This document shows positions 3,970-13,124 of a DNA stretch of 64,000 nt, piece by piece. A program made the position numbers and the translations under genes. The stretch's first letter is position 1; each line of letters opens with the position of its first letter. The DNA is from Nitrosomonadales bacterium (GTDB taxonomy: Bacteria > Pseudomonadota > Gammaproteobacteria > Burkholderiales > Gallionellaceae), in the NCBI GenBank assembly GCA_025350915.1, contig JANXWX010000034.1, positions 8,677 to 72,676 on the forward strand. Direction: 5' to 3'. The notes under the pieces were generated by a model. The model worked only from the letters and a program-made list of their open reading frames with translations, searched no databases and was not told the origin of the DNA.

Positions 3970-4075
3970 GTTAATATTACGATAATGCAGCATGTTAAAA
4001 ATATGCAGAAAAACTAAACGCAGCGAAGTGCAAACCACTTTGCATTTCGCTATATAACCCGCATAGAAAGCCATT

Positions 4076-4996
4076 ATGTCAAAGATCCTGGCAACACTGT
4101 TCATGTCATCCGTATTCATTTTTTCAAGTAACGCGATAAATGCAGAAACCCCATCTGCTGATGGCGGTATGACCGCAGAGCAATTTCTTGCTACGCTTAA
4201 ATTCCAGAATGGAAAAATTACCTTACCCAATAACATCGCAACCCTGGATATGCCGCCGTCATTTCGCTATCTTGACCCTGCAGATACAGAGAAAATTCTG
4301 GTCAATGCATGGGGTAATCCCCCCGGCAGTAAAACATTGGGCATGATACTTCCATCAGACGTCAGCCCGCTTACAGAAAATAGCTGGGGCGTCATCATTT
4401 CCTACACCGACGATGGTCATATCAAGGATGATGATGCCGACAGCATAAAATATGACGATCTGCTCAAGGATATGCAAGACGCAGTAAAAGAGGCCAATGA
4501 AGCACGCAAGCAAAAAGGTTATGAAGCGATGACGTTGCTAGGCTGGGCAGAAGCACCCCACTACGATAAAGCGAGCCACAAATTTTACTGGGCTAAAGAG
4601 TACGTCACCGAAACACAGACAGGCACACATTCGCTGAATTACAACATCCGCGTATTGGGACGCAAAGGCGTGCTGGTATTAAATGCGGTGGCGGGTATGA
4701 ACCAGATTGATGCGATCAAAGGTGAAATGAAAAATGTCGTGGCCTTTACTGATTTTACCGCAGGCAATGGCTATAAGGACTTTGATGTGAGCACAGACAA
4801 AGTTGCCGAATACGGGTTGGCTGCGCTGGTTGCAGGCGGCGTGGCAGCCAAGCTGGGCTTCTTCGGCAAGATATTTGCGTTCCTGCTGCTGTTTAAGAAG
4901 TTCGTATTGATTGGCTTGGCCGCAGTTGGGGCCGGTTTCTATAAATTAATTGGCCGCAACAAAAAAGAAGCAAAGAACGAGAACGATCAAGCGTAG
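4076..4996 (+). CDS. DUF2167-type membrane-anchored protein
   Basis: 306-aa ORF. It has a signal peptide (LFMSSVFIFSSNAINA), a soluble domain with SWGVIISYTDDGHIKDDDADSIKYDDLLKDMQ, and C-terminal TM helices. This layout and motif match DUF2167 proteins as I remember them. Confidence 0.72.
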   Translation: MSKILATLFMSSVFIFSSNAINAETPSADGGMTAEQFLATLKFQNGKITLPNNIATLDMPPSFRYLDPADTEKILVNAWGNPPGSKTLGMILPSDVSPLTENSWGVIISYTDDGHIKDDDADSIKYDDLLKDMQDAVKEANEARKQKGYEAMTLLGWAEAPHYDKASHKFYWAKEYVTETQTGTHSLNYNIRVLGRKGVLVLNAVAGMNQIDAIKGEMKNVVAFTDFTAGNGYKDFDVSTDKVAEYGLAALVAGGVAAKLGFFGKIFAFLLLFKKFVLIGLAAVGAGFYKLIGRNKKEAKNENDQA

Positions 4997-5011
4997 CATT
5001 AGCCGTGCCAC

Positions 5012-5047
5012 AAAACCCCTGCAGAGAAAATTGCAGGGTTTTTTTTG
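5012..5047. terminator. bidirectional rho-independent terminator between convergent genes
   Basis: The sequence is aaaa-CCCTGCA-gagaaaat-TGCAGGG-tttttttt. A 7-bp GC-rich stem is flanked by an A-run and a T8 run. It sits in the 52-nt gap between the stops at 4996 (+) and 5049 (-). Confidence 0.65.
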
Positions 5048-5048
5048 G

Positions 5049-5588
5049 CTATTTCATACGCGAAGGCAATTTGATCGTTTCACCCGCAACCATAAATTTA
5101 CCCTTGCCGCGATGATGAAGTGTCTGCGGATTTTTTATCGCAGGATCCACCCACGCCTTGAGTACTTCAAGAATAAAAAAGTTATACGAGTTGACCAGCC
5201 GTGTATCTACAACTTTGCACTCCAGGCTGGCATAGCACTCTGCAAGCAGTGGAGCCTGCACCAGGCTTGCACCAACCGGCGTCAAACCGGTGCGCGCAAA
5301 CTTGTCCACCTTGCGCCCGCTACAGTTGCCGATGGTCACCACCTGCTTGGCTAAATCAACGGTCGGAATATTGATCACGCATTCGCGTGTGGCTTTCAGG
5401 GCTGCAAACGAATAGTTGTTGCCACTGATCAGACAACCCACCAAAGGCGGTTCAAACTCCATCATCATGTGCCATGACTGCGTCATGATATTGTGCGCAC
5501 CTTTATGGGAGGTGGTGATCAACACAACAGGGCCGGGTTCCAGCAAGGTGTAGACTTTGCCTAGAGGGAAGGATTTTTTCTTCTTCAT
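5049..5588 (-). CDS. flavin reductase family protein (FMN-binding split barrel)
   Basis: 179-aa ORF. PGPVVLITTSHKGAHNIMTQSWHMMMEFEPPLVGCLIS and RTGLTPV...APLLAECYASLECKV follow the flavin reductase-like domain pattern. Confidence 0.85.
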   Translation of the reverse strand: MKKKKSFPLGKVYTLLEPGPVVLITTSHKGAHNIMTQSWHMMMEFEPPLVGCLISGNNYSFAALKATRECVINIPTVDLAKQVVTIGNCSGRKVDKFARTGLTPVGASLVQAPLLAECYASLECKVVDTRLVNSYNFFILEVLKAWVDPAIKNPQTLHHRGKGKFMVAGETIKLPSRMK

Positions 5589-5816
5589 TACGGTTTCCTT
5601 TAAGTGTGCACAATACCCTGTTAGTTGTCAGTACAGTGACTTTTTAAGTCGGTAAAATCGATAGTAGTGAATGGCTGTTTTTCGGTGCGGACACACGCTC
5701 CTTCATTTCGGAAGGGCCGCTTTCTAAGTATTCCCGCCTTTCGTCCTACGATGCTCCCCGCCTTAAAACAGACCTTGGAACTGTGATATCACTTCGCGCA
5801 CAAGAACCAAATCGAT

Positions 5817-6527
5817 TTAAGAAAAGCCTTCAACAATATAAGTTGCGCCAAGTGAATTTGCCCATACTTGATCGAGTAAGGAGCGCGACGATGTGCTGGC
5901 TTTGTCATGCAGAGCATTCAAGAATGGAATGATACAAAGTTTCTGGCTTGCAATTATGGGAGCATTCCATCCAGGAGAATTCTTTAATTCTGCCCAATCT
6001 TCTGGGTAAAAATTTGCTACCACCACCTCACAAAGCAACACAACATCCAAAGGAAAATACAACCATCTTGGTTCTTTAATTGGCACTTCAAAAGTCTTGG
6101 TGTACCCAGGTGTATGCCCCCCAAATTGTAGGTGGAAGAGCGGGCCTTCCTGAAATTGATTCTTTGGGGAATTTGCGAAATCAATATGATGCTTGATTAA
6201 GACATTACCTTCGTCATCCAATACCTCCAATGCAAGATCAAGACGTTTAAAACAGACACCTCCTGCAGGGCTTCGATGGACACTGATGGAGGCATATATC
6301 TGTGGCTGAATAGTCTTATTTAAATGTCGATCATGTTTGCGCTTGAATACAATAGGATTAGATTTTGAAATTTCATATGACCATATGAATTTCTCTTTCG
6401 CATTAGCAACAGTGATTCTGGCTAATTCCTCAAAAACGTTCCCAGCCTCAATGATCTTCTTTTGATGAAGTGCCCGACCAGTCTGTCGAAGCGCATCTGC
6501 CATTTCTTTAGCAGTTGGGACACTCAT
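5817..6527 (-). CDS. hypothetical protein, last gene of the methyltransferase/GHKL-kinase operon
   Basis: 236-aa ORF. Its ATG overlaps the stop of the upstream gene (ATGA at 6524-6527). I recognise no motif. It has no TM segment and no signal peptide. Confidence 0.7.
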   Translation of the reverse strand: MSVPTAKEMADALRQTGRALHQKKIIEAGNVFEELARITVANAKEKFIWSYEISKSNPIVFKRKHDRHLNKTIQPQIYASISVHRSPAGGVCFKRLDLALEVLDDEGNVLIKHHIDFANSPKNQFQEGPLFHLQFGGHTPGYTKTFEVPIKEPRWLYFPLDVVLLCEVVVANFYPEDWAELKNSPGWNAPIIASQKLCIIPFLNALHDKASTSSRSLLDQVWANSLGATYIVEGFS

Positions 6528-7690
6528 GATGGCATCTGAGTTTGCGGTTGAATTTTTCCGTTCCTGATTTTTTCAGCCAGACTTTCATCGGAATCATCGA
6601 TAACCAAATCACGGCTTTCATAGGCACCGGTCTGAATACAGTACCAGCAAATTCTTGATGGCTCCAAGAAAGGTTGATAGTTGGCATCGTAGCCCAAAAC
6701 AGAATGTTTCAGCTCGGTGGGGTGATCGCAACTTGAACAGGCAACCCAGAAATATTCATCTGAAGATTTACTCCACTTGGATATAGCAGGCTTTAGCTCG
6801 ATCTGTAGTGCATTCGATAGCTTCGCGACCCTTTCAGAACCTGCCAACGAGCCTAATGACGCACCCAAAGTTTCTTTGCTCCATGCATCTAGCCGATGCC
6901 ACCACCAGCGCGGCCACCCCTCACATAACAGACCGCTATAGCCTAGTTTAAAATCAAACAGCTTGGCTTTAAGCTGGGGAATATTGGGAGAGTCTGGAGA
7001 TACACCAAGCCTCGCCAATAAATGCTCATCAGACAATAGGATGCCGGGGCGCCGAATCAACAACGCCATTACCTTCGCGACGATTTGATGGGGGTATTGG
7101 ATTTTAGCGATGGCACGTATTGCTTGATGATTTAACACCATCTCAGCCTCATGCGAATCCAGCTCAAGATGGATATTTGGCGCAACGGGATTATTATTGT
7201 TCTTGGTATAACTGGCATGAATAGTTTTATAAGCTGTCGCCATACTTGCTATACGACTGGCTGCCAGCGCTAACGGCTGCGGAGAGACGAGCTCTTCTTT
7301 CGATATAACAAGATCAAAAAGATCTTCTGCCGTCAAGTCAGCATGAAAAATACGTTTTATATAATCTTCTTGTGAAAGCAGAATAAGCGGCAAGTCACAG
7401 TTCGGTTGGTCAATAGCACGGTCACGTATCTGTTGAGCTAAAGCGCTTGCACGATATTTATTTTTTTGCCCCCCACCTTCAGCATCCTTGATCGGTACTT
7501 CGTCAAGACGAAAGTCAATTGCGGCAAAGTCGTAATGTTGATCTATTAAATGACCCGCAAGTTCGGTCACTTCATGTTCGGGTAGGCGAAATTCGATATT
7601 CAGCTGGCCACTTGAGTTGTTGGTAAGCAACTCGGCATATTTCTTTTCCTCTTCCTTGTCATCAATAAAAACACCTTTAAACAAGATCAC
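6524..7690 (-). CDS. receiver (REC)-like domain protein with C-terminal CxxC...CxxC zinc-ribbon / possible His-Me finger
   Basis: 388-aa ORF. The N-terminus has VFIDD (D10 D11), AAIDFRL (D59), PLILLSQ (S106) and DLVISKEE (K131), matching CheY-like positions. The C-terminus has CEGWPRWWWHRLDAW and C318-SS-C-DH..N337..C348-WY-C351. The track start is GTG at 7690. TTG at 7684 has better spacing to the AGGAGG box at 7689-7694. Confidence 0.7.
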   Translation of the reverse strand: MILFKGVFIDDKEEEKKYAELLTNNSSGQLNIEFRLPEHEVTELAGHLIDQHYDFAAIDFRLDEVPIKDAEGGGQKNKYRASALAQQIRDRAIDQPNCDLPLILLSQEDYIKRIFHADLTAEDLFDLVISKEELVSPQPLALAASRIASMATAYKTIHASYTKNNNNPVAPNIHLELDSHEAEMVLNHQAIRAIAKIQYPHQIVAKVMALLIRRPGILLSDEHLLARLGVSPDSPNIPQLKAKLFDFKLGYSGLLCEGWPRWWWHRLDAWSKETLGASLGSLAGSERVAKLSNALQIELKPAISKWSKSSDEYFWVACSSCDHPTELKHSVLGYDANYQPFLEPSRICWYCIQTGAYESRDLVIDDSDESLAEKIRNGKIQPQTQMPS

Positions 7691-7694
7691 CTCC

Positions 7695-9989
7695 TTATTG
7701 TTGTGCTTTTGCAGCTGGGACTAAGAAATCAAATCGACAATTAAATCCCTGCTCGGTATCTCCAAGGCGAACATGCCCACTATTGGCGCTTGCGATATCA
7801 GAAACGATCTTCAATCCCAACCCAGAACCGGGGCCAACTAATTCATCATCGCCATATTGGTGCGTTGTAAAAAAAGCATCGAATATCTTATCCGCAATCG
7901 CTGGATCAACACCCGTTCCAGTATCCTGAAAACCGATACGGACAAACTCGCCTTCACGATCTGCGCTGATTTTAATTTTTCTATTGCCAGTATTGGCACG
8001 ATCCATTGCCTTGATTGAATTTGTGAGGAAATTGAATAACACAGAATCAATTTCGCTCCGATGCATAGAAGTAGTGCGAAGATAAGGCGGGTCAATAGTT
8101 ACCTCAAACTCAACCTGCCTCGTATCAAGATAGTGTTTGAATTGGGATACGAATTCGGTAATTACGCTGTGAATGGCGATCTCATTTTTTTCACGCTTGG
8201 CTGTATGGGCTATCAGGCTCATCACATAGGAGGCCAAATCATTAAGCTGACTAAGGCTCGCTTCTACGTCATCAATGGGCTTCTTGGCTTTATCCTTTGC
8301 GCCGAGGTCGGTCAGCAATCCTTTCAAATTCAGGATGCTGCCGCTGAAACCATTCAGCGCCCCGCGTATTTCATGACTGAATACGGCTATCGAGGTACCC
8401 AATGAAGCCAGGATTCGCAACAACTCCTCATAACGTAGATGCACTTTTTCGCGTTGTTCCTGTTCCTGCTCAAAACTTTCAACGATCTTCTGAACTTCCT
8501 CTTGAGCGTCTTTCAGCACATCAACTGGTACAGCGTTTCCCCCCGAAGAGCCACTTTGTATTGATGTGGCCGACACGTCTTCAAATATCTTTTTTACACG
8601 TTCGGAAGGTTTGCCGCGCTTAGAAGTAAAATCTTTTTGACCTGCTGTCTGTTTTCTTTCGCGAGCAGCCGCAACGCGCATAGCTGCCCACTCAAGTCCA
8701 CCTCTGACAAAATCGGCAAGTTGTGCAAATGCTTCATTTTCAATCAGGCCTTCTCGACTGCTGGTTTCTTCGAGAAGCACGTTCTCATCGCTTGCTAGTT
8801 CGACTTGCCCAAAAAAATTGTTATTGCTCGCAGGAATTAGCAGGCTTCTACGGCCAGTGTCATATGCAAGGCGAAGCCAATCATCGCGAGGCTCACCATA
8901 AGGAAGAACGCGGAAGCCATCACGATACAAGCGAATTCCCCCATATTCAGCACCAACGTCCTGTGCCGTCCTGCTTGAAAATCCTTCGATTAGCTCTGAG
9001 GAATAAATAAAGTAATCTGCCTCGAAGGTTGAAACACCCACCAGATCAAAGTTGCGATCTAGCGTTATTTGATCTGTAAACCCAAGTCTTTTTGATTCGA
9101 GCAGAATGTGCGCATGGCCATCTTTGTCAATATGCCCACTGATCCGAGCTAACCTTTGATCAAGGAAAGTTTTATCGAGAGAGAATTCCATTCTGACTTC
9201 ATCAGAATTTTTCCCATTGATAACTACTGAGAAGCCTGGGTCAGGCTCTACCCCCTTATTTTTAACTAGTGCTTTACCTCGATACGTTCGCCTGACCTTA
9301 TATGGTGGCTGGAGCAGAATGACGGATTTCCACACGCGCTTCAATTGAGCTTCTGTCCATCTGTCACGCATCGTAACAATGGTTAATTTCGTTCCGTGCG
9401 CCTCTGGTGGCTTATCAAAGCGTTCAACTGAAAACGTCAGCATGCCTATATCTACATCAGGCTTAAACACATCGTCCCAGTTGAATTGCACGCGTACACC
9501 TTGGGTCTCGCCGATCACACCTGACTCAAGAATCAGTTCTTTTCCAAGACGTTCAACCGCAAACCGCCCAATGCCTTTGCGCCCAGCTCGTGAACGCTTA
9601 AACCTATCGGAGATTGGGGATAGCTCCTTGTCATTGGTCGAAAGCCGCATCCATGAGCTACGTATTGTTTCCTCAGTCATTCCCGAGCCGTCGTCAGCAA
9701 TGGTGAGAACCCCGCCAGGTTTATCAAACGCAACGAAATCGATTCTTACTTCTGTAGCATCCGCATCGTAGGCGTTCTTAATTAGTTCACTGAGAGCGGT
9801 TTCTTGGCGACCGACGAGTTCAAAGCCTAGGCGATGAATATGCCGCGCATCGATTGAAAATCGTACTGAGCTTTTATCACATTCAAGTATTTTTTTATTG
9901 AGCTCCGCAATAGCCTGAAAATCGACATGCTCCTGCTCAAGCTCTATTGAAAGCTGCTTTTTAAGCGTGTTAAGAAGATCAGATTTCAT
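7695..9989 (-). CDS. dual GHKL protein: MORC/HSP90-like ATPase N-terminus fused to histidine-kinase transmitter
   Basis: 764-aa ORF. The N-terminal Bergerat fold has SELIKNAYDADATEV (N box), IADDGSGM (G1) and GRKGIGRFAVERLG (G2). The C-terminal transmitter has the H box VFSHEIRGALNG (His539), N box LFNFLTNSIKAM, G1 QDTGTGV, F box IFDAFFTT and G2 GPGSGLGLKIV. No TM segments. Confidence 0.85.
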   Translation of the reverse strand: MKSDLLNTLKKQLSIELEQEHVDFQAIAELNKKILECDKSSVRFSIDARHIHRLGFELVGRQETALSELIKNAYDADATEVRIDFVAFDKPGGVLTIADDGSGMTEETIRSSWMRLSTNDKELSPISDRFKRSRAGRKGIGRFAVERLGKELILESGVIGETQGVRVQFNWDDVFKPDVDIGMLTFSVERFDKPPEAHGTKLTIVTMRDRWTEAQLKRVWKSVILLQPPYKVRRTYRGKALVKNKGVEPDPGFSVVINGKNSDEVRMEFSLDKTFLDQRLARISGHIDKDGHAHILLESKRLGFTDQITLDRNFDLVGVSTFEADYFIYSSELIEGFSSRTAQDVGAEYGGIRLYRDGFRVLPYGEPRDDWLRLAYDTGRRSLLIPASNNNFFGQVELASDENVLLEETSSREGLIENEAFAQLADFVRGGLEWAAMRVAAARERKQTAGQKDFTSKRGKPSERVKKIFEDVSATSIQSGSSGGNAVPVDVLKDAQEEVQKIVESFEQEQEQREKVHLRYEELLRILASLGTSIAVFSHEIRGALNGFSGSILNLKGLLTDLGAKDKAKKPIDDVEASLSQLNDLASYVMSLIAHTAKREKNEIAIHSVITEFVSQFKHYLDTRQVEFEVTIDPPYLRTTSMHRSEIDSVLFNFLTNSIKAMDRANTGNRKIKISADREGEFVRIGFQDTGTGVDPAIADKIFDAFFTTHQYGDDELVGPGSGLGLKIVSDIASANSGHVRLGDTEQGFNCRFDFLVPAAKAQQ

Positions 9990-11703
9990 CGCGTAAGCGC
10001 CTTCTCCGATTCCTTACGATTTCTAATTCTCTGGCCAATGCGAAAATTAGTTGTTCATGGACAGATTTTTTTCTATTCCCAAAAATAAACATGTTAGCAA
10101 CTTGCTGCGCCCCCTCGGAATCACCTTTACGGAAACATGCGTCAATTTGTGAAAAGGCAGCATCAGTCTGCTCAACTGTCTTATCTTTTGGGAGGATGAG
10201 CCTTAATCTGTTTGCCTCGGATGGCTCAATTTTCAGGACTCCAGAACCATAACTCCGGCCTACATACTCAGCGGATAGCTGGCTAAAAGTAGAACACAGA
10301 GAGATAACTAACTGTTTCCTTGTTTGTTGTAATACAGATGGATTAAAAAATACTCGATGAATAGAATTCGTCGCATTGATTGCGGCATTGTTCAGCACCA
10401 TTCTCGGTCCATCGTGCATCATGTAAGAGAAGAAAGCATCAGGGATACGCCCATCATCGGCTCTCAACCAATCTTTTCGGCGGCGAAATGTACTGTTTTG
10501 TAGGCGCTCATTTTCTGGAAACGTTGCCGCATAACGCACCGCTGCATGTGACATCCTCTTGTCAGGTCGATGAAATAATAGATAGGGTTTGTCCTGAGAT
10601 TTCCAATCTTCAATATCCATTTCGTTGATCTGTGTGCCTTGGATATACGCGAATTTTGAAAGAATGGGCTTAAGGTTACGTTCACCAAGATGGTGAAGTT
10701 TGGCGCGGCTTGGTGACATGATGAAGAATCGATTTGCGCCAGTCACAGTGCCTATCAATACCTTGCACAGATCGCCCAGTCTCACTGCGTCTGTGCTGTC
10801 GGCCAAGGTGTCGTAGATACTTGTTTCATCCAGAGCAGTATGCAATTGCTTCAGAGCGATTGGCTTATCCAGAGATGAACTAACTTGGCTTTTGGTAGCT
10901 ATCACACTATCTAGTTGATCCGCCGATGTACAGTGGCTAATTTGAATGCCCTTAGATGACCCACCAAAGCCAGAACACAGCAGAATTACTGTACGCTCTT
11001 CCACTCCGTCCGATAGAAACATTCTTTCGGTTAGCTGAATAGCGATAACCTCATCAAAGCTAGCGGCAATATCCTCGCGCAAGCTTGTCGCATAATCCGC
11101 TTCCAAAAAACTCCCAGGGAGCACCCATGCCATCCTGCCGCCGGGCATAAGGAAGGACATGGCATGCAATACGAAATAAGCCCATAAGCTAGCTCTGCCG
11201 TTAATTTTAATTCCTGTTTCTTCTTTCCATGCCTGAACTGAAGCCTTCTGGTTCGCAGACATGTTGTGTAGGGAGACGTAAGGTGGATTTCCTATGACTA
11301 CATCAAATGCTTGCGCAGAAAAGCTTTGTGGGGATACCGCAACAAAATCAGAAAGTACGTAACGGCGCTCAATACTCAAAATACCGAGCTTTTCAAAAAG
11401 ATATGCGAATGCTTGTGGGTCGATATCACAACCATAAAGTTGATTCTTGGGGGATGGGCTACCCAGTTCAGATAGCCTATCTACCGCCGCCTGAAGAAAG
11501 CCACAACCGCCAAACCCAGGCTCTAATACATGCTCATTACGTGAGCGAATTGCCCACTTGGCAAGAAGTGAAGCAAGGACACTTGGAGTGTAATATGCAC
11601 CCAACTCCCTTTGGGTAAGAGGTTGGCTAGAAGGATCGCTTTGTGCTGTAGTCGGCATTACATCAAAACCAGCAGTAGACGTTGCAGTAGTGTTCCTAAC
11701 CAT
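9979..11703 (-). CDS. N6-adenine DNA methyltransferase, gamma class (Eco57I/TaqI-like with C-terminal target-recognition domain)
   Basis: 574-aa ORF. GAYYTPSVLASLL, AdoMet motif I VLEPGFGGCGFL and motif IV VIGNPPYVS occur in gamma-class order. The C-terminal LGDLCKVLIGTVTGANRFFI resembles the TaqI-type specificity domain. Its stop overlaps the next gene by 11 nt. Confidence 0.85.
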   Translation of the reverse strand: MVRNTTATSTAGFDVMPTTAQSDPSSQPLTQRELGAYYTPSVLASLLAKWAIRSRNEHVLEPGFGGCGFLQAAVDRLSELGSPSPKNQLYGCDIDPQAFAYLFEKLGILSIERRYVLSDFVAVSPQSFSAQAFDVVIGNPPYVSLHNMSANQKASVQAWKEETGIKINGRASLWAYFVLHAMSFLMPGGRMAWVLPGSFLEADYATSLREDIAASFDEVIAIQLTERMFLSDGVEERTVILLCSGFGGSSKGIQISHCTSADQLDSVIATKSQVSSSLDKPIALKQLHTALDETSIYDTLADSTDAVRLGDLCKVLIGTVTGANRFFIMSPSRAKLHHLGERNLKPILSKFAYIQGTQINEMDIEDWKSQDKPYLLFHRPDKRMSHAAVRYAATFPENERLQNSTFRRRKDWLRADDGRIPDAFFSYMMHDGPRMVLNNAAINATNSIHRVFFNPSVLQQTRKQLVISLCSTFSQLSAEYVGRSYGSGVLKIEPSEANRLRLILPKDKTVEQTDAAFSQIDACFRKGDSEGAQQVANMFIFGNRKKSVHEQLIFALARELEIVRNRRRRLRDEI

Positions 11704-11722
11704 ATAGCCTAACTTTTAGTAA

Positions 11723-11751
11723 ATTATATACGTGACCAACTTAATTGGCAC
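11723..11751 (-). promoter_or_regulatory. candidate sigma70 promoter for the four-gene operon
   Basis: On the minus strand, GTGCCA (-35, 4/6) is followed by a 17-nt spacer and TATAAT (-10, 6/6). It ends about 19 nt before the methyltransferase ATG. That leaves a very short leader and a weak RBS, so it is tentative. Confidence 0.3.
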
Positions 11752-12074
11752 GCCAGCAGACGCTTTAAGCTGTAAATAAACAAAGACATCGTAACGTCTC
11801 TATTATTGACTAGCTATTTTCTTTGCGGGGAATCCTAACAGATTTCAGCGCATGAGTGGCATTGATAAGTAGTTATACCGCTCCAGCTTGATTTCTGATG
11901 CACGTGTAGGTCGTGAATTGAACCGAAGCGGACTTCCAAAGTATAGGGGCATATGCCCGCTTTGGCCGAGTAGTGGACATTGATGTTAGTTGAGCACCGA
12001 GTGTTGCCTAGTAGCCGCATACATAAAGTGAGTATTATGAATAGATTTGGCATATTAGTAATGCTGCTGATCTT

Positions 12075-12540: not shown

Positions 12541-12840
12541 TTAAAAGAAATCTTCTTCCCGTTGGTGTCGCACAGCTAGTACGGTTACTGTCCGGTTATC
12601 CTCGATTTCAAATAAGGCAACATAACCGTTTGCGCCAAAACTGATAATTAATTCACGCAGCAAGGGATGTTCCGGTGATACCTTGCGGCAACTGAATGGA
12701 AAAGTACGCAGGAATTCAATGCCTTTTGCAATAGCAGAGCGGGCACGCTTGGCGGCCTTTAAATCACGTTCCGCGAGAAAATCAAACAAGTGTTGCAGAT
12801 CTTTCGCTGCCGCAGGCGTAAATCGAACTGTGTAGTTCAC
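12541..12840 (-). CDS. type II toxin-antitoxin system RelE/ParE family toxin
   Basis: 99-aa ORF. It begins FTPAAAKDLQHLFDFL and ends with the core LRELIISFGANGYVALFEIEDNRTVTVLAVRHQREEDF, typical of ParE-like toxins. It overlaps the upstream antitoxin gene by 4 nt. Confidence 0.85.
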   Translation of the reverse strand: MNYTVRFTPAAAKDLQHLFDFLAERDLKAAKRARSAIAKGIEFLRTFPFSCRKVSPEHPLLRELIISFGANGYVALFEIEDNRTVTVLAVRHQREEDFF

Positions 12841-13124
12841 TTGCGGGAAAGTGCCTTGCCTGATTTCACTATCGTTTTATCCAGACTGGTTAGCATTTCT
12901 TCTGCTGAAATATATTTTCCAGTTAGGCGCGCCTCATCTCTGGCAGCTAAACCGCGTGCAATAAATTCTTTCTGCATCGCTCGTCGTTGAATATTGAATT
13001 GGACTGACTCCAGCAAAAAACCGGAAAGGGTTTCGCCTTCTATCAGGGCGGCCTCGGCAGCATCGCGTACCTTTTCGCTTACTCGCAACGAAGGGAACGT
13101 GGAAGTTTTGATCATTGTTTTCAT
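12837..13124 (-). CDS. ribbon-helix-helix (ParD/CopG-like) antitoxin
   Basis: 95-aa ORF directly upstream of, and overlapping, the ParE-like toxin. The N-terminal FPSLRVSEKVRDAAEAAL..GETLSGFLLESV fits an RHH DNA-binding fold. AAGGAG RBS precedes the ATG. Confidence 0.72.
   Translation of the reverse strand: MKTMIKTSTFPSLRVSEKVRDAAEAALIEGETLSGFLLESVQFNIQRRAMQKEFIARGLAARDEARLTGKYISAEEMLTSLDKTIVKSGKALSRK

What the first reader, a model, noticed from the sequence alone, without database searches (positions are those of the whole stretch)
7695..9989. Single polypeptide with two Bergerat-fold ATPase modules and no conventional sensor domain
Seen:
- Residues about 60-150 form a HATPase_c_3/MORC-like module.
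- Residues about 350-420 carry IRLYRDGFRVLPYGEPRDDW and SREGLIENEAF.
- A charged, coiled-coil-looking stretch (EEVQKIVESFEQEQEQREKVHLRYEELLRIL) runs straight into the H box (His539, codon 8373-8375).
- A canonical kinase catalytic domain follows (LFNFLTNSIKA, DTGTGV, IFDAFFTT, GPGSGLGLKIV).
- There is no TM helix and no PAS-, GAF- or periplasmic-type input that I can see. The only candidate input domain is the first ATPase.

Established: MORC-type GHKL modules act as ATP-driven clamps on nucleic acid. Class I kinases autophosphorylate on the H-box His in a dimer.

Inference: ATP- and DNA-dependent dimerisation of the N-terminal GHKL could gate kinase activity. That would make this a cytoplasmic nucleic-acid-sensing histidine kinase.
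Basis: partly seen in the sequence, partly recalled or inferred. Interest (0 to 1): 0.75.

Follow-up and report, generated by a model that had tools for sequence, protein, structure and literature searches.

The report
MutL/MORC-like ATPase fused to kinase
This gene encodes a soluble histidine kinase whose input module is a MutL/MORC-type ATPase. It sits in a mobile four-gene cassette with a DNA methyltransferase. The design is already published, and a relative has been shown to defend against phage, but this version has partner proteins that nobody has described.

Summary
ORF 7695-9989 (- strand, 764 aa) carries two Bergerat-fold modules: HATPase_c_3 at aa 63-175 and HATPase_c at aa 646-759, both E 3.5e-24. 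It also has an H-box (His539-Glu540), all N/G1/F/G2 boxes, and no TM, PAS or GAF domain. An AlphaFold model shows that aa ~40-450 form a complete GHKL plus transducer ATPase resembling MutL, MORC2 and Hsp90. A long helix links this module to a DHp hairpin and a CA domain.

The gene is not alone. It lies in a translationally coupled cassette: N6-adenine MTase, then HK, then a 388-aa receiver-like protein, then a 236-aa protein. The HK, 388-aa and 236-aa trio recurs in the same order in 75-79 of 80 loci from many phyla. A DNA methyltransferase is nearly always adjacent, and the outer flanks vary.

The architecture is not new. Bellieny-Rabelo et al. 2021 described HATPase_c_3 + HEF_HK + HATPase_c kinases with RR-like partners beside R-M genes. 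The 2025 'Ambrosia' preprint showed that a homologous MTase/HK/REC/HNH cluster defends against phage. The window HK is 30% identical to AbrB (E 2e-35).

This clade differs from both. Its proteins fall below the PF19191 and PF19192 thresholds, it has no HNH and no XRE gene, and its fourth protein has a confidently predicted fold with no structural match. DNA-gated kinase activity remains an untested inference.

The parts
9979..11703 (-). N6-adenine DNA methyltransferase, 574 aa, of the Eco57I/gamma class (GNPPY motif). It is the first gene of the cassette and its stop overlaps the HK start by 11 nt.
   Evidence: Pfam N6_Mtase 3.9e-16, Eco57I 1.5e-15 and M_Eco57I_C 7.8e-11. PADLOC MTase_II 1.1e-80.
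11723..11751 (-). Sigma-70-like promoter match just upstream of the MTase start. No XRE/C-protein ORF lies in the 370-bp upstream gap.
   Evidence: 10 of 12 hexamer matches. This is a consensus match only.
7695..9989 (-). GHKL-ATPase/histidine-kinase fusion, 764 aa. This is the finding.
9465..9803 (-). N-terminal Bergerat-fold ATP-binding domain (aa 63-175). Motifs I-III are invariant: E68, N72, D99xGxG and K138-G-x-G141.
   Evidence: Pfam HATPase_c_3 3.5e-24. NCBIfam BbrUII/HgiDII restriction-enzyme N-terminus 1.5e-20. Invariance.
8640..9464 (-). Transducer-like middle domain (aa ~176-450). It holds the invariant GIRxYRxGFRVxPYGE..DDW and EETSSREGL motifs. Together with the GHKL domain it forms a MutL/MORC/Hsp90-type ATPase module.
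   Evidence: No Pfam or PDB sequence hit. The fold match spans about 430-480 columns to MutL NTD, MORC2, MORC3 and Hsp90 N+M. The region is homologous to AbrB aa 12-397.
8199..8525 (-). Charged connecting helix plus the DHp hairpin (aa 489-597). The phospho-acceptor His539 is at codon 8373-8375.
   Evidence: AF2 helices 489-562 and 565-597. Aligned to the HK853/ThkA H-box. H539-E540 are invariant.
7698..8186 (-). Kinase catalytic (CA) domain (aa 602-764) with the N, G1, F and G2 boxes.
   Evidence: Pfam HATPase_c 3.5e-24 at aa 646-759. Foldseek matches to YF1 and HK853.
6524..7690 (-). 388-aa partner (P388). It has an N-terminal receiver-like domain (D10-D11, D59, S106, K131) and an uncharacterised C-terminal region of about 250 aa. 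That region carries an HTH-like 'LLARLGVS' segment, a Trp-rich motif and a Cys cluster.
   Evidence: Signature residues are invariant or nearly so in 23 homologues. The top five PDB profile hits are all receiver domains, though weak. hhalign aligns in register with CheY, AbrC, and the Campylobacter and Enterobacter partner REC domains. No Pfam hit, including PF19192.
5817..6527 (-). 236-aa protein (P236), the fourth gene. Its start overlaps the P388 stop by 4 nt. It has an orphan fold with invariant H114, D116, H132, Q134, R154, E167 and N172.
   Evidence: AF2 pLDDT 90.6 and pTM 0.89. No Foldseek match in the PDB (best E 0.19) or BFVD (best E 0.036). No Pfam, PADLOC, NCBIfam or PDB sequence hit. 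The family has 958 clusters, all stand-alone. It is present directly after P388 in 75 of 80 loci.

Best explanation
The ORF encodes a soluble, dimeric sensor histidine kinase. A complete MutL/MORC-type ATPase (GHKL domain plus transducer domain, aa ~40-450) takes the place of a ligand-binding input domain. A long helix couples this ATPase to a HisKA-like DHp and a CA kinase core.

The kinase belongs to a horizontally mobile four-gene cassette associated with restriction-modification genes: N6-MTase, HK, receiver protein P388 and P236. This cassette is a sister of the HEF_HK/Response_reg_2 elements and of the Ambrosia anti-phage system.

Proposed mechanism:
1. ATP-driven closure of the N-terminal ATPase pair is triggered by an infection-related cue. 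The cue is most plausibly foreign DNA, perhaps presented by the methyltransferase. This closure alters the register of the connecting helices.
2. His539 is autophosphorylated by the C-terminal CA domain.
3. The phosphoryl group passes to Asp59 of P388.
4. Phospho-P388 switches on the output. It either activates itself or P236 directly (as in Detocs) or induces transcription of the cassette (as proposed for Ambrosia).

Shown here: the domain anatomy, conservation of the catalytic residues, the cassette and its distribution, and homology to AbrB. Inferred: the nature of the cue, the gating, the phosphotransfer and the defence role.
For: - Anatomy.
- The N-terminal half matches MutL NTD, MORC2-DNA, MORC3 and Hsp90 N+M over about 430-480 columns. 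The C-terminal half matches HK853 and YF1.
- Both ATP sites and the His-Glu pair are invariant in 84 homologues.
- Cassette: overlapping or abutting genes on one strand.
- A P388 homologue is present in 79 of 80 loci. A P236 homologue is present in 76 of 80, and in 75 it lies directly after P388.
- A window-type MTase is adjacent in 69 of 80 loci. A different Eco57I/MmeI-type MTase sits upstream in L036.
- Flanks are variable, with integrases, IS elements and R-M or defence genes. No Pfam family occurs in more than 3 of 142 neighbouring ORFs.
- A Hymenobacter plasmid copy lies next to a Piwi (pAgo) gene.
- P388 carries the receiver signature in register with CheY.
- Homology to Ambrosia AbrB: 30% identity over 374 residues, E 2e-35. 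In Ambrosia, the N40A (N-terminal GHKL), D60A (REC), MTase and HNH mutants each abolish defence.
- Published precedent for the architecture and its R-M linkage: PMC8011034. Published precedent for paraMORC GHKL+S5 proteins in R-M operons: PMC2292703.
Against: - No biochemical data exist for this clade.
- The window proteins do not reach the Pfam thresholds for HisKA, HEF_HK, Response_reg or Response_reg_2.
- No recognisable effector such as a nuclease is present in the four genes.
- In Ambrosia, pre-methylation of phage by AbrA did not protect it, so methylation-state sensing is doubtful.
- The MTase diverges much faster than the trio (38% against 80% identity between the window and L002). No trio component obviously co-varies with MTase specificity.
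- The monomer model has only moderate confidence in the linker and DHp region (pLDDT 50-70 for aa ~450-600).
- The Foldseek output gives no residue map, so the phosphate-contacting residue of the transducer domain was not identified.
Confidence: 0.62

Rival explanations
1. The kinase and receiver form a purely transcriptional switch, as the Ambrosia authors propose. Phospho-P388 binds DNA through its HTH-like segment and turns on the cassette's own genes during infection. The MutL/MORC-like module senses a cue other than DNA methylation.
For: - In Ambrosia, reporters replacing abrA or abrD are silent until infection, and AbrC is a REC-wHTH protein.
- P388 has an HTH-like 'LLARLGVS' segment conserved across the family.
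- A single promoter-like site lies upstream of the MTase.
Against: - The window has no XRE/C-protein.
- In alphaproteobacterial loci the MTase is convergent and therefore in a separate transcription unit.
- The P388 C-terminal region is about 250 aa, far larger than a wHTH, and has no match to known DNA-binding output domains.
- This model overlaps step 4 of the best explanation rather than excluding it.
Confidence: 0.3
2. The N-terminal GHKL plus transducer module is not a sensor. It is the DNA-manipulating motor or clamp of a restriction complex, the paraMORC role proposed by Iyer et al. 2008. The kinase half only tunes this complex, and P236 or the P388 C-terminus is the nuclease.
For: - The closest sequence relatives of the N-terminal domain are in type II restriction enzymes: NCBIfam BbrUII/HgiDII 1.5e-20 and PADLOC REase_II 1.3e-14.
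- paraMORCs are typical of R-M operons.
- Some variants add a PLD-nuclease plus SNF2-helicase gene directly after P236.
- MORC2 bound to DNA is among the best structural matches.
Against: - No nuclease signature was found in any of the four proteins.
- Strict conservation of a complete kinase core and a receiver partner implies that signalling is central.
- Sister systems in Campylobacter consist only of HK, RR and dcm.
Confidence: 0.25
3. The N-terminal ATPase reports the cell's nucleotide pool (ATP or NTP level) rather than nucleic acid. Bellieny-Rabelo et al. speculated this for HEF_HK proteins.
For: - Suggested in PMC8011034.
- The domain has an intact nucleotide pocket.
- Nucleotide depletion and changes in the nucleotide pool are known infection cues (own knowledge).
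Against: - The module has the full GHKL plus transducer design of DNA- or client-clamping ATPases, not that of a simple nucleotide-binding domain.
- The constant MTase linkage points to DNA.
Confidence: 0.1
4. It is an ordinary housekeeping cytoplasmic sensor kinase whose position next to a methyltransferase is incidental.
For: Databases annotate it simply as 'sensor histidine kinase' or 'ATP-binding protein'.
Against: - The same trio plus an MTase recurs across Pseudomonadota, Bacteroidota, Actinomycetota, Campylobacterota, Acidobacteriota, Nitrospirota and CPR, with unrelated flanks.
- It is found on plasmids and next to a pAgo gene.
- The cassette has lower G+C than its flanks (0.44-0.47 against 0.50-0.54).
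Confidence: 0.02

Closest known systems
Ambrosia anti-phage system of Pseudomonas aeruginosa (AbrR/A/B/C/D; bioRxiv 10.1101/2025.09.30.679545)
   Same: - The gene order is N6-MTase, then an HATPase_c_3...HATPase_c kinase, then a receiver protein, then a fourth gene.
- The window HK is 30% identical to AbrB over aa 44-417 (E 2e-35), including the RxYRDxFRVxPYG and REGL motifs.
- The receiver Asp aligns (D59 with D60).
- The MTases share the gamma-class N6 catalytic core (23% identity, E 1e-4).
   Different: - The window has no XRE regulator.
- The fourth gene is not an HNH nuclease. P236 shows no similarity to AbrD.
- P388 is 388 aa with a large unknown C-terminal region, whereas AbrC is a 209-aa REC-wHTH protein.
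- The preprint reports Ambrosia only in Gammaproteobacteria. This clade spans many phyla.
HEF_HK / Response_reg_2 two-component-like elements (Bellieny-Rabelo et al. 2021, PMC8011034; Pfam PF19191, PF19192)
   Same: - A soluble kinase with HATPase_c_3, a DHp-like helix pair and HATPase_c.
- An adjacent receiver-like gene.
- Enrichment of R-M genes nearby.
- A proposed origin from paraMORCs, with the N-terminal GHKL as the sensor.
   Different: - The window HK does not hit PF19191. One Geobacter homologue hits it below threshold at the DHp (19.8 bits against 24.1).
- None of 23 P388 homologues hits PF19192.
- The partner MTase is N6-adenine rather than mostly C5-cytosine.
- An extra conserved gene (P236) is present.
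paraMORC / MORC / MutL GHKL+S5 ATPases of R-M systems (Iyer, Abhiman & Aravind 2008, PMC2292703)
   Same: - An N-terminal GHKL domain with intact motifs followed by a transducer-type domain.
- Linkage to methylases and, in some variants, to PLD nucleases and SNF2 helicases.
   Different: - It is fused to a complete histidine-kinase core. The 2008 survey does not mention such a fusion.
- No sequence-level match to the Pfam S5/DNA_mis_repair domain.
Detocs defensive two-component system (Rousset et al., bioRxiv 10.1101/2023.01.24.525353)
   Same: It is a phosphorelay used directly as an immune system. Kinase His and receiver Asp mutants lose defence, and the effectors are modular.
   Different: - The Detocs kinase has a TPR input domain, not a GHKL ATPase.
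- It has a stand-alone buffer receiver and a PNP (ATP nucleosidase) effector.
- It has no methyltransferase. No homology was tested.
BbrUII/HgiDII-family type II restriction enzymes (NCBIfam NF050001)
   Same: The N-terminal ~175 residues are the best non-kinase sequence match of the window protein (E 1.5e-20, aa 43-215 against profile positions 2-175).
   Different: Only the GHKL domain matches. The remaining ~480 profile positions of the restriction enzyme are not matched, and the window protein carries a kinase core in their place.

Membership tests
GHKL (Bergerat-fold) ATPase, N-terminal module | Motif I (ExxxNxxD), motif II (DxGxG) and motif III (GxxGxG lid) are present and conserved | tested here: met
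   E68, N72, D75, D99-G101-G103 and K138-G139-G141 are invariant in 84 homologues. Pfam HATPase_c_3 3.5e-24.
MORC/paraMORC/MutL-type ATPase module | The GHKL domain is followed by an S5-fold transducer domain | tested here: inconclusive
   The fold-level match spans 428-480 columns to MutL NTD (target TM 0.60), MORC2 and MORC3, but also to Hsp90 N+M, whose middle domain differs. No sequence hit to any S5 or DNA_mis_repair profile. The phosphate-contacting residue was not identified.
MORC/paraMORC/MutL-type ATPase module | ATP-dependent N-terminal dimerisation and DNA clamping | not testable with these tools
   This needs a multimer model or biochemistry.
Class I (HisKA-type) histidine kinase | A DHp helix with phospho-acceptor His followed by an acidic residue, immediately upstream of a CA domain with N, G1, F and G2 boxes | tested here: met
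   phmmer aligns aa 521-762 to HK853 and ThkA. H539-E540, N653/N657, D689xGxG, F703/F706 and G719xGxGLG are invariant. AF2 shows a helical hairpin at 489-597.
Class I (HisKA-type) histidine kinase | A match to the Pfam HisKA (PF00512) profile | tested here: not met
   No HisKA hit at E <= 0.1.
HEF_HK / Response_reg_2 elements (PMC8011034) | Kinase architecture HATPase_c_3 + DHp-like + HATPase_c, soluble | tested here: met
HEF_HK / Response_reg_2 elements (PMC8011034) | PF19191 (HEF_HK) above the gathering score | tested here: not met
   No hit in the window protein. Among five homologues, only L038 hits, at 19.8 bits against a 24.1-bit cut-off.
HEF_HK / Response_reg_2 elements (PMC8011034) | The adjacent gene carries PF19192 (Response_reg_2) | tested here: not met
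   0 of 23 P388 homologues hit it at E <= 1. P388 is nevertheless receiver-like.
HEF_HK / Response_reg_2 elements (PMC8011034) | Linkage to R-M genes, especially a methyltransferase | tested here: met
   An N6 MTase is adjacent in 69 of 80 loci by tblastn, plus a different MTase in L036.
Ambrosia | An AbrB homologue (GHKL-HK) | tested here: met
   30% identity, E 2e-35 over aa 44-417. Only the first 399 aa of AbrB were available. Its C-terminal HATPase_c is known from the paper's table.
Ambrosia | An AbrC-type REC-wHTH response regulator | tested here: inconclusive
   The REC halves align weakly (hhalign E 0.0028, D59 with D60). The C-terminal parts are unrelated in size and sequence.
Ambrosia | The AbrD HNH endonuclease | tested here: not met
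   The P236 profile against AbrD shows no similarity (E 0.29). No HNH Pfam hit anywhere in the cassette.
Ambrosia | The AbrR XRE regulator | tested here: not met
   No plausible ORF upstream. HTH_3 occurs in only 2 of 142 neighbouring ORFs of related loci.
Ambrosia | Anti-phage activity | not testable with these tools
   This requires cloning and plaque assays.

The most novel reading that the evidence does not exclude
The kinase is a direct sensor of foreign DNA. In this reading the fast-evolving methyltransferase acts as the sequence-reading subunit. The MutL/MORC-like ATPase pair clamps DNA at unmodified sites, and that closure is converted into His539 autophosphorylation. The signal then activates P388 and P236, with P236 being a nuclease or other effector of a previously unseen fold. 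This would be the first histidine kinase gated by DNA clamping, and a new effector family.
Probability: 0.18. Interest if true: 0.8.

Novelty: new variant of a known kind. Interest (0 to 1): 0.5.

Why it matters
- The question of how a histidine kinase can be driven by a second, MutL/MORC-type ATPase in the same chain is still open. Neither the 2021 comparative paper nor the Ambrosia preprint resolves what the N-terminal ATPase senses.
- This clade is broad.
- The cassette is compact and self-contained, which makes it a convenient test system.
- Two of its four proteins are unannotated everywhere. One of them has a confidently predicted fold with no structural relative, so a new effector or adaptor family may be hidden here.
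- If the kinase does respond to DNA, it would link R-M-type self/non-self marking to phosphorelay signalling. It would also give a bacterial model for MORC-type ATPase switching.

Tried and rejected
- Pfam, PADLOC and NCBIfam on P388 and P236 gave nothing.
- Profile searches of P236, P388 and the HK middle region against PDB sequences gave no usable hits. The only signal was weak receiver hits for P388. Pfam on 20 middle-region homologues gave only scattered single hits.
- Foldseek of the P236 model against the PDB and viral structures gave no match.
- I asked whether P236 is a diverged AbrD-type HNH. hhalign rejects this. A ββα-Me reading of H114/H132/N172 crossed my mind but nothing supports it.
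- An inter-protein mutual-information scan (HK against P388, 67 pairs) was meant to look for DHp-receiver specificity covariation. Clade-splitting columns dominated it and it was uninformative.
- Search for the kinase in phage genomes found only two short unannotated metagenomic records. tblastn of P236 against plasmids found no match.
- The first neighbour scan failed on a size limit and was repeated with fewer ORFs.
- The apparently 'MTase-less' variants were partly wrong. L036 has a different large MTase upstream, and several other loci are cut by contig ends.
- A housekeeping-kinase reading was rejected on distribution and context.
I also could not build a dimer or a protein-DNA model.
Full report
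**1. The observation**

ORF 7695-9989 on the - strand encodes 764 aa.

- Pfam finds HATPase_c_3 at aa 63-175 and HATPase_c at aa 646-759. Both score E 3.5e-24, well above their cut-offs.
The His539 codon is 8375-8373.
- The Pfam HisKA profile does not hit. However, phmmer against PDB sequences aligns aa 521-762 with HK853 and ThkA, including the SHE(I/L)R H-box. NCBIfam kinase models cover aa ~513-758.
- There is no hydrophobic segment of TM strength, and Pfam finds no PAS or GAF domain.
- In 84 homologues of 46-91% identity, the catalytic residues of both ATP sites and the His-Glu pair are invariant.

**2. What the protein looks like**

The AlphaFold2 model was built from 84 sequences and has a mean pLDDT of 78.7. 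It contains:

- an α/β N-terminal half (aa ~40-450);
- a continuous helix at 489-562 that carries the charged stretch and His539;
- a return helix at 565-597, completing the DHp hairpin;
- a CA domain.

Foldseek against the PDB matches the C-terminal ~240-260 columns to YF1 (4gcz) and HK853. It matches the N-terminal ~430-480 columns to the following, all at E about 1e-11 to 1e-12:

- MORC2 ATPase bound to DNA (9cdj);
- B. subtilis MutL N-terminal domain (9n2k, TM 0.60 normalised on the target);
- MORC3 (6o1e);
- the N+M domains of Hsp90.

The 'middle' region carries the invariant GIRxYRxGFRVxPYGE..DDW and EETSSREGL motifs and has no Pfam or PDB sequence match. On the fold evidence it is the transducer-type domain of a complete GHKL ATPase. 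The N-terminal domain's closest non-kinase sequence relatives are BbrUII/HgiDII-type restriction enzymes and a PADLOC type II REase model.

**3. The gene is part of a cassette**

Four genes on the - strand abut or overlap:

- an Eco57I-class N6-adenine MTase (9979-11703);
- the kinase;
- a 388-aa protein, P388 (6524-7690);
- a 236-aa protein, P236 (5817-6527).

A promoter-like site lies upstream of the MTase. There is no XRE ORF in the upstream gap. The cassette has lower G+C than its flanks. It lies between housekeeping genes (PolA, a flavin reductase) and beside a ParE toxin-antitoxin pair.

They come from Pseudomonadota, Bacteroidota, Streptomyces, Campylobacterota, Acidobacteriota, Nitrospirota and CPR bacteria.

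- Profile searches find a P388 homologue in 79 of 80 loci.
- A P236 homologue is present in 76 of 80 loci, and in 75 it lies directly after P388 on the same strand. The four misses are L006, which also lacks P388, and three loci with little or no sequence after P388.
- A window-type MTase is adjacent in 69 of 80 loci. It is upstream on the same strand, convergent downstream in Alphaproteobacteria, or downstream on the same strand in Bacteroidota.
- L036 has a different 1116-aa Eco57I/MmeI-type MTase upstream and a PLD-nuclease plus SNF2-helicase gene after P236. L014 has the same PLD-SNF2 gene. L018 has a PLD protein and no MTase within reach.
- Outside the cassette nothing is conserved. The 142 neighbouring ORFs hit 160 Pfam families, none in more than three ORFs. 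These include integrases, IS elements, HNH_2, ResIII, PLD and other MTases.
- A Hymenobacter plasmid copy lies next to a Piwi-domain gene.

This is the signature of a mobile accessory module, probably a defence module.

**4. The partner proteins**

*P388.* It keeps the receiver signature (D10-D11, D59, S106, K131) invariant or nearly so in 23 homologues.

- Its only PDB profile hits are receiver domains, and they are weak (E 0.45-1.6).
- hhalign places these residues in register with CheY D12/D13, D57 and T87.
- hhalign also aligns them with AbrC D60.
- The same holds for the partner proteins of the related Campylobacter and Enterobacter kinases (E 2e-4 and 2e-5). Those partners themselves give sub-threshold Response_reg hits.
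- Its C-terminal ~250 aa match nothing. This region has an HTH-like LLARLGVS segment, a Y.G.FS.GW.RWW motif, and a Cys cluster in the proteobacterial clade.

*P236.* It gives a confident model (pLDDT 90.6, pTM 0.89).

- There is no structural neighbour in the PDB or BFVD and no profile hit anywhere.
- Its family has 958 clusters at E <= 1e-3. All of the best 150 are stand-alone proteins; the full-length ones are ~210-275 aa.
- Invariant H114, D116, H132, Q134, R154, E167 and N172 suggest an active or binding site. Its activity is unknown.

**5. Comparison with what is known**

*Bellieny-Rabelo et al. 2021 (PMC8011034).* They described soluble kinases with HATPase_c_3 + HEF_HK (PF19191) + HATPase_c, next to RR-like genes (PF19192) and enriched R-M genes. 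They proposed a paraMORC origin and placed the N-terminal GHKL in the sensor position. The window proteins are below threshold for both Pfam models. They therefore belong to a sister clade, not to the curated families.

*The 2025 Ambrosia preprint.* It showed that a P. aeruginosa cluster of XRE, N6-MTase, HATPase kinase, REC-wHTH and HNH genes protects against phage.

- Mutants in the N-terminal GHKL Asn (AbrB N40A), the receiver Asp (AbrC D60A), the MTase and the HNH each abolished defence.
- The cluster is induced on infection.
- AbrA-methylated phage stay sensitive.

Using the sequences in that paper's Table S1:

- The window kinase is 30% identical to AbrB over aa 44-417 (E 2e-35).
- The MTases share only the catalytic core.
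- P236 is unrelated to the HNH protein.

*Broader relatives.* Kinases with full-length similarity occur on 59 plasmid records. Examples are Campylobacter conjugative plasmids (HK + RR + dcm) and an archaeal Halomicrobium plasmid. Iyer et al. 2008 had already placed GHKL+S5 'paraMORCs' in R-M operons. Detocs shows that a phosphorelay can itself be an immune system.

**6. Mechanism**

The best-supported reading is as follows.

- The MutL/MORC-like ATPase is the input module of a dimeric kinase.
- ATP-driven closure of that module, in response to an infection-linked cue, is transmitted through the long helix to the DHp.
- His539~P is passed to P388 Asp59.
- Phospho-P388 drives the output.

Shown: the anatomy, the residue conservation, the cassette, and homology to a system in which the equivalent N-terminal Asn and receiver Asp are essential. 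Inferred: everything about the cue and the output.

Two observations weigh against simple 'unmethylated DNA' sensing:

- the Ambrosia methylation experiment;
- the MTase diverges far faster than the trio. Between the window and L002 the MTase is 38% identical, uniformly along its length, while the HK is 80%, P388 72% and P236 63% identical.

The second point would fit a model in which the MTase itself supplies sequence recognition to the complex. That is speculation.

The main rivals are a purely transcriptional switch, a restriction-motor role for the GHKL half, and nucleotide-pool sensing. The housekeeping reading is excluded by distribution and context.

**7. Verdict**

The finding is real and correctly read at the domain level. 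Its central idea, a GHKL ATPase as input to a kinase linked to methyltransferases, is already in the literature. A relative has been validated as an anti-phage system. The window adds a distinct, widespread and unannotated variant with an uncharacterised receiver protein and an orphan-fold fourth protein. DNA-gated kinase activity remains an attractive but untested hypothesis.

Noticed in passing
window 5817-6527 (-): P236 has a high-confidence predicted structure (pLDDT 90.6) with no Foldseek neighbour in the PDB or BFVD and no profile hit. The family has 958 clusters, and the members listed (the best 150) are stand-alone.
   Followed up: partly
window 9979-11703 vs L002:6127-7839: The MTase is only 38% identical between two Gallionellaceae cassettes whose kinases are 80% identical. 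The divergence is uniform along the gene, which suggests replacement of the whole MTase or very fast divergence within a conserved cassette.
   Followed up: partly
L036:2401-13102; L014:4117-7446; L018:5969-7297: Thiotrichales variants extend the cassette. They add a 1085-1109-aa PLD-nuclease plus SNF2-helicase protein after P236 and, in L036, a 1116-aa Eco57I/MmeI-type MTase upstream. L018 has a PLD protein upstream and no MTase within reach.
   Followed up: partly
L006, L008 (same MAG, QNER01), L011, L018, L046: Large sulfur bacteria carry several copies. Candidatus Parabeggiatoa has two in one MAG, and Candidatus Marithrix has two. L006 lacks the P388 and P236 partners.
   Followed up: no
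window 12541-13124 (-): A ParE-family toxin (99 aa, Pfam 2.5e-17) with an overlapping upstream 95-aa ORF, presumably the antitoxin. The pair lies between the cassette and polA.
   Followed up: partly
window ~4000-12000: G+C is 0.44-0.47 across the cassette and its immediate neighbours, against 0.50-0.54 on either side. This is consistent with acquired DNA.
   Followed up: no
plasmid hit H22 (NZ_CP044130.1, Halomicrobium sp. LC1Hm) and H6 (Campylobacter jejuni p15597A-2, L083): The GHKL-kinase fusion also occurs on an archaeal plasmid. It is common on Campylobacter conjugative plasmids, where it sits with a 340-aa response regulator and a convergent dcm gene but no fourth gene.
   Followed up: partly
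window 8361-8375 (HK aa 539-543): The position four residues after the phospho-acceptor His is an invariant Gly (H539-E-I-R-G543), not the Thr/Asn associated with HisKA phosphatase activity (10.64898/2026.02.27.708494). The kinase may therefore lack phosphatase activity towards its receiver.
   Followed up: no
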